Assembly (NCBI RefSeq): GCF_036588685.1
Contig: NC_086377.1
Coordinates: forward strand, 11,718,001-11,782,000
DNA length: 64,000 bases
Source of the DNA: Mytilus trossulus
Lineage: Eukaryota
Reading direction: 5' to 3'
This document shows, piece by piece, positions 25,281 to 27,246 of this stretch. Position numbers and translations under genes: made by a program. How positions within the stretch are numbered: position 1 is the first letter of the stretch; each line of letters starts with the position of its first letter. The notes under the pieces are model-generated. The model saw only the letters and a list, made by a program, of their open reading frames with translations, was not told the origin of the DNA and made no database searches.

Positions 25281-27174
25281 TAATACTTTCCACAAAACAT
25301 GCCGTTGTAGTAACTCTGTGATCCAACAGGACATGATTCACATTGTAATACTCACCACAAAACAGGTCATTGTAGTAACTCAGTGATCCAACATGACATG
25401 ATTCACATTGTAATACATTGTACTCACCACAAAACAGGTCATTGTAGTAACTCAGTGATCAAACAAGAAATGATTCACATTGTAATACTCACCACAAAAC
25501 AGGTCATTGTAGTATCTCAGTGATCCAACATGACATGATTCACATTGTAATACTCACCACAAAACAGGCCATTGTAGTAACTCTGTAATCCAACAGGACA
25601 TGATTCACATTGTAATACTTACCACAAAACAGGCCATTGTAGTTACTCTGTGATCCAACAGGACATGATTCACATTGTAATACTTACCACAAAACAGGCC
25701 GTTGTAGTAACCCAGTGATCCAACAGGACATGATTCACATTGTAATACTCACCACAAAACAGGCCATTGTAGTTACTCTGTGATCCAACAGGACATGATT
25801 CACATTGTAATACTCACCACAAAACAGGCCATTGTAGTTACTCTGTGATCCAACAGGACATGATTCACATTGTAATACTTACCACAAAACAGGCCGTTGT
25901 AGTAACCCAGTGATCCAACAGGACATGATTCACATTGTAATACTCACCACAAAACAGGCCATTGTAGTTACTCTGTGATCCAACAGGACATGATTCACAT
26001 TGTAATACTCACCACAAAACAGGCCGTTGTAGTAACTCTGTGATCCAACAGGACATGATTCACATTGTTATACTCACCACAAAACAGGCCGTTGCAGTAA
26101 CTCAGTGATCCAACATGACATGATTCACATTGTAATACTCACCACAAAACAGGCCATTGTAGTAACTCTGTAATCCAACAGGACATGATTCACATTGTAA
26201 TACTTACCACAAAACAGGCCATTGTAGTAACTCTGTGATCCAACATGACGTGATTCACATTGTTATACTCACCACAAAACAGGCCATTGTAGTAACTCAG
26301 TGATCCAACATGACATGATTCACATTGTAATACTCACCACAAAACAGGCCATTGTAGTAACTCTGTGATCCAACATGACATGATCAACGTTGTAATACTC
26401 ACCACAAAACAGGCCATTGTAGTAACTCTGTGATCCAACATGACGTGATTCACATTGTTATACTCACCACAAAACAGGCCATTGTAGTAACTCTGTGATC
26501 CAACATGACATGATTCACATTGTAATACTCACCACAAAACAGGCCGTTGTAGTAACTCTGTGATCCAACAGGACATGATTCACATTTTAATACTCACCAC
26601 AAAACAGGCCATTGTAGTAACTCTGTGATCCAACATGACATTATTCACATTGTAATACTCATCACTAAACAAGTAATTGTAGTAATTCTGTGATCCAACA
26701 TGACATAATTCACATTGTAATACTCAGGACAAAATAGGCCATTGTAGTCACTCAGTGATCCAACATGACATGATTCACATTGTAATACTCACCACAAAAC
26801 AGGCCATTGTAGTAACTCTGTGATCCAACAGGACATGATCCACTTTGTTATACTCACCACAAAACAGGCCATCGTAGTAACTCTGTAATCCAACATGACA
26901 TGATCCACTTTGTAATACTCACCACAAAACAGGCCATTGTAGTAATTCTTCGATCCAACAGGACATGATTCACATTGTAATACTCACCACAAAACAGGCC
27001 GTTGTAGTAACTCTGTGATCCAACATGACATGATTCACATTGCAATACTCACCAAAAAAACAGGCCGTTGTAGTAACTCAGTGATCCAACAGGACATGAT
27101 TCACATTGTTATACTCACCACAAAACAGGCCGTTGTAGTAACTCTGTGATCCAACAGGACATGATTCACATTGT
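25281..27174 (-). repeat. 65-bp satellite (~29 copies) of an exon 3' end plus 5' splice site
   Basis: Minus-strand unit CAATGTGAATCATGTCCTGTTGGATCACAGAGTTACTACAATGGCCTGTTTTGTG|GTGAGTATTA. The first unit is coding. Confidence 0.95.
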
Positions 27175-27246
27175 TTTGTCATCTCTGAGTAATACTGTTT
27201 GTTCTGAGGACAACATAAATCTCCACTTGACCTTTGTCTGCGTACG
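27119..27246 (-). CDS. Large secreted protein, coding exon 4 (second furin site and Cys-rich module)
   Basis: TTGCAG acceptor (phase 2) and GTGAGT donor (phase 1). Encodes SVRRQRSSGDLCCPQNKQYYSEMTKQCESCPVGSQSYYNGLFCG. Both phases match the neighbouring exons. Confidence 0.85.

What the first reader, a model, noticed from the sequence alone, without database searches (positions are those of the whole stretch)
25281..27246. A satellite built from an exon end plus its splice donor: ~29 tandem 5' splice sites in one intron
Seen: the 65-bp unit is the last 55 nt of coding exon 4 (QCESCPVGSQSYYNGLFC) plus GTGAGTATTA, so nearly every copy carries a strong donor (GTGAGT, some GTAAGT). Reading through the first donor hits TGA in copy 2 (...CGEYNNVNHVLLDH*). 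Any downstream donor would therefore give a truncated or NMD-prone product lacking the Link-like domain. Copies vary at codon positions (CCT/CAT, CAG/CTG), and many contain CACAG 25 nt before the donor. Inference: the array could act as a splice decoy or U1 sink whose copy number tunes expression, or as a reservoir for gene conversion into the exon. It also shows the exon-plus-donor duplication that could seed micro-exon arrays.
Basis: partly seen in the sequence, partly recalled or inferred. Interest (0 to 1): 0.7.

Follow-up and report, generated by a model that had tools for sequence, protein, structure and literature searches.

The report
Splice-donor minisatellite in mussel Link gene
In a mussel gene, the end of one exon and its splice signal are copied 28 more times into the next intron (about 100 times in a second gene copy nearby), but the assembled RNA uses the first signal and the copies decay as if unselected, so this is likely a harmless example of a repeat type already known from human, lancelet and chicken genes.

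Summary
The array is real: 29 units of 65 bp (55 exon + 10 intron bases) at 25281-27174, 26 with an intact donor. The host is an intact Mytilus gene for a 1079-aa secreted-type protein with a C-terminal Link domain. A second gene copy 76 kb upstream carries about 102 units, and a third haplotype in a public run also has the array, so it is length-variable and not an assembly artefact. RNA contigs from four studies join the first donor to the last exon; no listed contig uses a later donor (rare use cannot be seen in contigs). The copies show no coding constraint (14/33 synonymous vs 53/129 non-synonymous changes seen) and no protection of the donor. This is a new member of a known class (human F7/CBS/IFI6 VNTRs, lancelet 'mirages', chicken exon stuttering); the scan has noted the same arrangement many times, including in this genome. 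Decoy, reservoir and micro-exon ideas found no support. One twist: any later donor would give the same short-tailed, Link-less protein, which is the usual form of this family. Separately, the host's predicted fold weakly resembles Tc toxin A subunits (inconclusive).

The parts
25281..27174 (-). 65-bp minisatellite, 29 units; unit = last 55 nt of coding exon 4 + first 10 nt of the intron
27119..27246 (-). coding exon 4 (128 nt), encodes the family's Cys motif; its last 55 nt are unit 1
27109..27118 (-). authentic donor (first of the array), joined to 24816 in RNA contigs
27043..27108 (-). unit 2 (66 nt): holds the in-frame TGA reached 13 codons after the exon, 25 nt before its own donor at 27052; same stop in gene copy B
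25281..25345 (-). last unit; donor dead here (GA at +1/+2) but GT in copy B and in run X20; followed by unique intron sequence
24817..27118 (-). host intron, 2302 nt (8065 nt in copy B)
24542..24816 (-). last coding exon, Link (Xlink, PF00193) domain; 3' UTR continues to at least 24250
28919..29099 (-). coding exon 3 (181 nt)
29551..29773 (-). coding exon 2 (223 nt)
30154..32590 (-). coding exon 1 (ATG at 32586; signal-peptide-like start, long helical region); a 5' UTR exon lies further upstream, not located

Best explanation
This is an intronic minisatellite that grew from a 65-bp tandem duplication across an exon/intron boundary, and it is likely a tolerated, near-neutral by-product because the spliceosome takes the first donor it meets after the exon. 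Shown: the unit anatomy; an intact gene; first-donor splicing in RNA contigs; 29 versus about 102 units in two gene copies that share rare variants in the same order; no constraint on codons or donors in the copies. Inferred: birth by slippage or template switching with almost no microhomology, growth by block duplication and unequal exchange (higher-order repeats and two templated insertions in copy B), exclusion of edge units from mixing, and first-donor choice by exon definition / 5'-to-3' priority as shown for human F7. Inferred safety net: a later donor gives a stop after 13 residues, so leakage yields a Link-less protein or a decayed message rather than a long frameshifted product.
For: First-donor junction in X1, X7, X7, X11 by the letters of loose ends, and in X15 by one unbroken 4068-nt contig: 4 of 7 different runs laid, 4 studies; X12 shows the joint but ends too early to tell the unit; X20 is unspliced and X24 has no reads on the exons. 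Full-length homologues P0001, P0002, P0004, P0006 carry the same junction peptide. Synonymous 14 of 33 vs non-synonymous 53 of 129 possible changes seen in 131 units (OR 1.06, p=1.0). Donor columns not spared. Rare variants collinear between arrays (A8=B76, A9=B77, A10=B82, A13=B98/102, A29=B106). Unit-spanning contigs are at depth 13.6 vs 975.9 for the junction contig (X7) and 8-60 each vs about 20,000-40,000 summed on the exon (X11), next to an unspliced-intron contig at depth 7: what unspliced RNA times copy number would give. Same arrangement and outcome in PMC1557585, PMC3087553, PMC3902484, PMC12954441.
Against: Logan contigs drop rare variants and the tables were cut (262 and 835 rows not shown, 224), so minor use of donor 2 or 3 is not excluded; in human 6-16 and CBS the next two pseudo-sites are used. 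Unit-spanning RNA contigs exist in X7 and X11 and cannot be told apart from transcripts spliced at distal donors. Contig depth is a poor measure by the tool's own note. The array is old enough to be shared by three diverged haplotypes and 85-90% of donors are still intact, which turnover explains but which is also compatible with weak selection. The distinct-variant tests ignore shared ancestry of units and have low power. No genotype-expression data.
Confidence: 0.82

Rival explanations
1. Leaky alternative donors make a real minor isoform: donor 2 (or read-through) yields core + Cys motif + 13 residues, without the Link domain, i.e. the family's usual architecture, and escapes decay.
For: All 25 downstream GT donors in A and all 97 in B give the same 13-residue tail; the stop is 25-26 nt before the donor-2 junction. 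43 of 57 family members with this Cys motif end within 15 residues of it. The stop in unit 2 is shared by A and B. Human 6-16 and CBS use the next two pseudo-sites.
Against: No listed contig has a junction at 27052 although unit 2 was in the laid stretch; depth over unit 2 is nil in X15 and X1 and about 1.4% in X7, from a contig that fits inner units better than unit 2. The stop variant is a common array allele (18 of 131 units), and the consensus unit also hits a stop in the third copy.
Confidence: 0.1
2. The array is a U1 sink or kinetic brake whose copy number tunes mRNA output.
For: 26 of 29 and 85 of 102 donors intact; predicted U1 pairing of 20 of 28 pseudo-donors equals that of the authentic one, which is the strongest of the gene's four donors; copy number differs about 3.5-fold.
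Against: Donor columns are not protected; B-type alleles are found spliced in RNA (X11, X12: the B letter at 24815 lies in the joint); U1 is very abundant relative to one nascent transcript (general knowledge); lancelet mirages are reported not to disturb splicing.
Confidence: 0.05
3. The array is a reservoir that feeds variants into the exon by gene conversion, or seeds micro-exons through the internal CACAG.
For: The only A/B difference in the 128-nt exon lies at the array's most balanced site; CACAG in 16 of 29 and 91 of 102 units; lancelet authors propose intron gain from mirages.
Against: That difference is a synonymous CpG transition that can recur by itself; the peptide is unchanged in A, B, P0001, P0004; only 1 of 28 intronic units in A still encodes the exon peptide; no codon constraint; the 25-nt micro-exon would shift the frame and sit 40 nt behind the previous donor; no such joint was listed.
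Confidence: 0.03

Closest known systems
Human F7 IVS7 37-bp VNTR, with 6-16 (IFI6), CBS intron 13, lamin B2 (100-bp unit) and PDGF intron 4 (81-bp unit) minisatellites (PMC1557585; seen: abstract, introduction passages, discussion)
   Same: First unit spans the exon/intron boundary, so the donor is reiterated in the intron; copy number varies; the most upstream donor is used (F7, lamin B2, PDGF).
   Different: Mollusc; 65-bp unit that is mostly exonic (55 of 65); 29 to about 102 units against 5-26; the host exon is penultimate and a stop lies in unit 2. In 6-16 and CBS two further sites are used; that was not seen here.
Lancelet 'mirage' minisatellites: Adh3, globins BflGb6/BflGb9, troponin C, PGBD5 (PMC3087553, PMC3902484; seen: passages)
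   Same: Tandem copies of an exon/intron boundary in an invertebrate; unit number differs between haplotypes; concerted evolution inside, edge units excluded; regular splicing reported undisturbed.
   Different: More units; higher-order blocks and templated insertions in copy B; somatic instability (reported for Adh3) not tested here.
Chicken 'exon stuttering' (PMC12954441; seen: abstract and passages)
   Same: Part of a coding exon with its splice site is copied into the adjacent intron; 1-44 copies, median span 1,751 bp; length-variable among individuals.
   Different: Described for GC-rich avian dot chromosomes; here an AT-rich (about 33% GC) mussel locus.

Membership tests
Exon/intron-boundary (splice-donor) minisatellite, F7 type / mirage / exon stuttering | Head-to-tail array of 10-160 bp units | tested here: met
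   65 bp x 29, 91% matches
Exon/intron-boundary (splice-donor) minisatellite, F7 type / mirage / exon stuttering | First unit spans a real exon/intron junction | tested here: met
   RNA contigs splice at 27119/27118; homologous proteins share the junction
Exon/intron-boundary (splice-donor) minisatellite, F7 type / mirage / exon stuttering | Most later units keep the donor consensus | tested here: met
   25 of 28 later units in A; 85 of 102 units in B
Exon/intron-boundary (splice-donor) minisatellite, F7 type / mirage / exon stuttering | Locally born, confined to the host intron | tested here: met
   All 127 matches in the own genome fall in this gene and its second copy (the tool warns that counts are lower bounds)
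Exon/intron-boundary (splice-donor) minisatellite, F7 type / mirage / exon stuttering | Variable unit number | tested here: met
   29 vs about 102 units in two gene copies with collinear rare variants; lengths in other individuals not measured
Exon/intron-boundary (splice-donor) minisatellite, F7 type / mirage / exon stuttering | Main mRNA spliced at the most upstream donor | tested here: met
   4 of 7 runs show it, none shows another
Exon/intron-boundary (splice-donor) minisatellite, F7 type / mirage / exon stuttering | Pseudo-donors are functional when the first is lost (F7 minigene result) | not testable with these tools
   needs a minigene
Regulatory splicing VNTR (length changes splicing or expression) | Splice usage or expression scales with unit number | not testable with these tools
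   no genotype-matched raw RNA reads among the 24 listed runs
Regulatory splicing VNTR (length changes splicing or expression) | Selection keeps the repeated signal | tested here: not met
   12 distinct changes at donor columns vs 9.4 expected; low power
Micro-exon array | Frame-preserving units under coding constraint, included in mRNA | tested here: not met
   65-nt period and 25-nt candidate micro-exon are not multiples of 3; syn/non-syn OR 1.06; no joint listed
Tc toxin A subunit-like fold (host protein, side question) | Helical channel followed by TcB-binding-type beta domain | tested here: inconclusive
   Foldseek ranks 1-21 are TcA chains (best E 2.8e-6, TM 0.12-0.17); VIA Z 6-7.5, rmsd about 6, 230-255 residues, tied with other helical bundles; C-terminal part of P0099: TcA ranks 1-2 of 48,161 (Z 6.5, rmsd 7.5, 243 aligned) and Foldseek E 1.1e-3; no sequence-level hit to TcA in PDB or Pfam

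The most novel reading that the evidence does not exclude
The array is a domain switch: mussels bolted a Link domain onto a secreted protein family that normally ends at this exon's Cys motif, and the amplified donor with its early stop restores the ancestral Link-less form at a rate set by array length, tissue or challenge. The host family may in turn be an unrecognised animal family with a Tc-toxin-A-like fold.
Probability: 0.05. Interest if true: 0.6.

Novelty: new member of a known kind. Interest (0 to 1): 0.2.

Why it matters
As it stands it is one more case showing that dozens of perfect-looking donors behind an exon are ignored, here in a mollusc and with a 3.5-fold length contrast between two gene copies, which makes it a usable natural test of first-donor priority outside vertebrates. 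It would matter more if raw reads showed regulated use of donor 2, because that would make a repeat a switch between two domain architectures. The uncharacterised host family (239 representatives, no Pfam model for its core) is probably the better lead than the array.

Tried and rejected
Assembly artefact: rejected; two arrays in a gap-free 184-kb stretch, a contig of run X20 crosses from unique intron into the array with 17 differences, 8 of 11 listed variants equal to copy B and 3 private, and unit-spanning contigs occur in X7 and X11. Dispersed satellite or element: all matches lie in the two gene copies; no match in metagenome contigs (uninformative for a mussel). Structured RNA: no tRNA or Rfam hit in 24800-29000. 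Upstream anti-donor pairing: two motifs at 27274 and 27369 are complementary to the donor and pair with it in folding models, but 12 of 300 shuffles do as well, and 77 of 300 once the branch-point-like heptamer is fixed; rejected as the built-in complementarity of branch and donor motifs. Paralog versus uncollapsed allele for copy B: not settled; no gap between the copies and a 37-kb unrelated spacer favour a real duplication, while X7 shows only A-type and X20 only B-type letters at four last-exon sites. No run was on record as RNA; spliced joints show that X1, X7, X11, X12, X15 hold RNA. The orthologous intron in other Mytilus species could not be read. Literature: no paper on this locus in one search (Mytilus + minisatellite + intron + splice); none on a metazoan TcA-like family in two searches (listings only). 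A search for VNTR + UPF3A + splice site found nothing; the 6-16 paper itself is not held, so it is cited through PMC1557585. PMC10078293 (passages) added nothing specific. No supplements were read.

Full report
Observation. Tandem Repeats Finder gives one array at 25281-27174, period 65, 29.0 copies, 91% matches. Read on the minus strand, each unit is 55 exon bases encoding QCESCPVGSQSYYNGLFC plus the first base of the next codon, followed by 10 intron bases. Of 29 units 26 keep G|GT[AG]AGT (22 GTGAGT, 4 GTAAGT) and three are dead; 16 hold CACAG 25 nt before the donor; 25 units are distinct in sequence. Read-through meets TGA in unit 2 after 13 residues.

Host gene. Five coding exons (32586-30154, 29773-29551, 29099-28919, 27246-27119, 24816-24542) with GT-AG introns give an open frame of 1079 residues. 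Homologues are named as Mytilus proteins, 83-96% identical over the first exon, and four full-length ones read ...YYNGLFC|GKLINI... across the array intron. The last exon encodes an Xlink domain (E 1.5e-7). The core has no Pfam match in 26 of 155 collected proteins scanned; 239 representatives match at E<=0.001.

Second copy. A search of the own genome with the exon found 127 matches, all in this gene or in a second copy 76 kb upstream on the same contig. Copy B is intact (1078 residues, 95-100% identical by region), its array intron is 8065 nt, and it has 102 scored units, 85 with an intact donor. Rare variants are shared in the same order (A8=B76, A9=B77, A10=B82, A13=B98/102, A29=B106), mean differences per unit are alike within and between arrays (5.2, 5.2, 5.4), and B has a block of about 65 extra units in its 5' half. 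B also carries two copies of an insertion of about 200 bp templated from the upstream intron (window 27597-27777), duplicated as part of a 1.3-kb block. These are marks of slippage, template switching and unequal exchange (inference). Whether B is a paralog or an uncollapsed allele is open; either way unit number varies 3.5-fold.

RNA. Of 24 runs listed none is on record as an RNA holder, but five of the seven different runs laid show spliced joints. In one search (27040-33400, holding units 1-2) X15, X1 and X7 skip the three upstream introns at CT..AC ends; X1 and X7 leave the stretch at the first donor with last-exon letters, and X15 has one unbroken 4068-nt contig whose piece ends there. 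Depth in the bin holding unit 2 is fully explained by these contigs in X15 and X1; X7 has about 1% extra. In one search (24250-25500, holding the last three units) X7, X11 and X12 join the acceptor to a unit end, and in X7 and X11 the letters beyond the unit are the exon's own unique sequence, so the spliced unit is unit 1. Contigs that run from one unit into the next exist at depth 13.6 (X7; junction contig 975.9) and 8-60 (X11; exon bins 20,000-40,000 summed; an unspliced intron contig at 7). This is what unspliced RNA collapsed over many units would give, but it cannot be told from rare distal donors. Contigs drop rare forms, depth is a poor measure, and many rows were not shown, so the result is 'first donor dominant', not 'first donor only'. 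X20 is unspliced and carries a third haplotype with the array, which rules out an assembly artefact. X24 (small RNA) had no reads on the exons or first two units.

Selection on the copies. Over 131 units of both arrays, 14 of 33 possible synonymous and 53 of 129 possible non-synonymous changes in the exon frame are seen (OR 1.06, p=1.0), and only 1 of 28 intronic units in A still encodes the exon peptide. After dropping two insertion-cut units (129 left), the donor columns -1..+6 hold 12 distinct changes against 9.4 expected from the same bases elsewhere (P(<=)=0.95, P(>=)=0.13): neither protected nor clearly targeted. The exon itself is conserved: the repeated peptide is identical in A, B, P0001, P0004 and differs at one residue in P0002. 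The one A/B difference in the exon is a synonymous C/T at a CpG, the array's most balanced site; this fits exchange with the array but also recurrent deamination. These tests treat units as a pool and have low power.

What a later donor would do. All 25 later GT donors in A and 97 in B give the same product, core + Cys motif + 13 residues; the stop lies 25-26 nt before the donor-2 junction and 90 nt or more before later ones. Under the 50-nt rule (recalled; not established for molluscs here) donor-2 messages would escape decay. Of 57 collected proteins with this Cys motif, 43 end within 15 residues of it and 6 run on for more than 60, so the Link-less product would look like a normal family member rather than a wreck. 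This is the most interesting rival, but no RNA evidence supports it.

Mechanism. Most likely (0.82) a tolerated boundary minisatellite: duplication of 65 bp across the junction (shown by anatomy), turnover by slippage and unequal exchange (inferred from B), first-donor choice by exon definition or 5'-to-3' priority (shown for human F7 in PMC1557585, discussion read; inferred here), little cost of leakage. Rivals: minor Link-less isoform (0.10), U1 sink or dosage tuning (0.05), conversion reservoir or micro-exon seed (0.03).

Comparison with what is known. PMC1557585 lists F7, 6-16, CBS, lamin B2 and PDGF as minisatellites whose first unit spans an exon/intron boundary; only the first donor is used in F7, lamin B2 and PDGF, two more in 6-16 and CBS. 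Lancelet 'mirages' show the same build, haplotype differences in unit number, exclusion of edge units and undisturbed splicing (PMC3087553, PMC3902484; passages). Chicken exon stuttering gives 1-44 copies, median span 1,751 bp, mostly length-variable (PMC12954441; abstract and passages). The lancelet and chicken leads came from earlier notes of this scan, which lists 119 findings with these words in at least 41 genomes and showed eight like cases in this genome (unchecked AI notes, not used as evidence). The six features of the class that could be tested are met. One search found no paper on this locus.

Side result on the host protein. An AlphaFold model (pLDDT 79, pTM 0.77) has a long helical region (about 383-709) and a beta-rich region (735-931). 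Foldseek ranks Tc toxin A subunits first (ranks 1-21; best E 2.8e-6; TM 0.12-0.17); VIA-align gives them Z 6-7.5, tied with unrelated helical bundles, but they are the family that aligns across both regions, to TcA residues about 2000-2516. A model of the C-terminal 364-residue homologue P0099 (pLDDT 88) again has TcA at ranks 1-2 of 48,161 (Z 6.5, rmsd 7.5) and first in Foldseek (E 1.1e-3); the ESM Atlas gives unnamed bacterial clusters at 0.92 and a TcA_TcB_BD cluster at 0.85. All scores are in the range the tools call a lead only; there is no sequence-level support. It is inconclusive and says nothing on function.

Verdict. Real, correctly described, a new member of a known kind; function as a decoy, reservoir or micro-exon seed is unsupported. 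Interest 0.2.

Noticed in passing
window 24542-32586 (-), protein P0001 family: The host belongs to a family of about 900-1100-aa proteins (239 representatives) with no Pfam model for the core and varied add-on domains (HYR, Sushi, SRCR, EGF, OLF, Link). Predicted folds repeatedly rank Tc toxin A subunits first, at middling scores. Possibly an unrecognised animal family of TcA-like fold; worth its own study.
   Followed up: partly
G000:C5:11646000-11687800 (L011-L015): Second intact copy of the gene and about 35-40 kb of flank, 85-98% identical, 67-82 kb upstream, no gap between; real duplication or uncollapsed allele.
   Followed up: partly
G000:C5:11669792-11678649 (L014-L015): Young LTR element (two identical 1099-bp LTRs, 417- and 1369-aa open frames) in the intron upstream of the array exon of copy B; the insertions in B's array were copied from across its insertion point, so they likely predate it.
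   Followed up: partly
P0001 vs copy A, residues 390-660: Identity drops to 91% in the central helical region while residues 1-390 are 100% identical: a possible fast-evolving or recombined segment.
   Followed up: no
window 27269-27370: Degenerate 31/33-bp repeat just upstream of the acceptor at 27247 that duplicates the branch-point-like motif; two copies are complementary to the donor, not beyond chance once the branch motif is fixed.
   Followed up: yes
window 19297-20199, 23171-23566, 8682-8910: Other minisatellites (39 bp x 23, 30 bp x 13, 31 bp x 7); the first two also occur in the copy-B region with different lengths.
   Followed up: no
window 27500-27575 and 32690-33400: Short dispersed repeats that attract hundreds of unrelated contigs and, at 27509-27573, small-RNA reads of run X24.
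   Followed up: no
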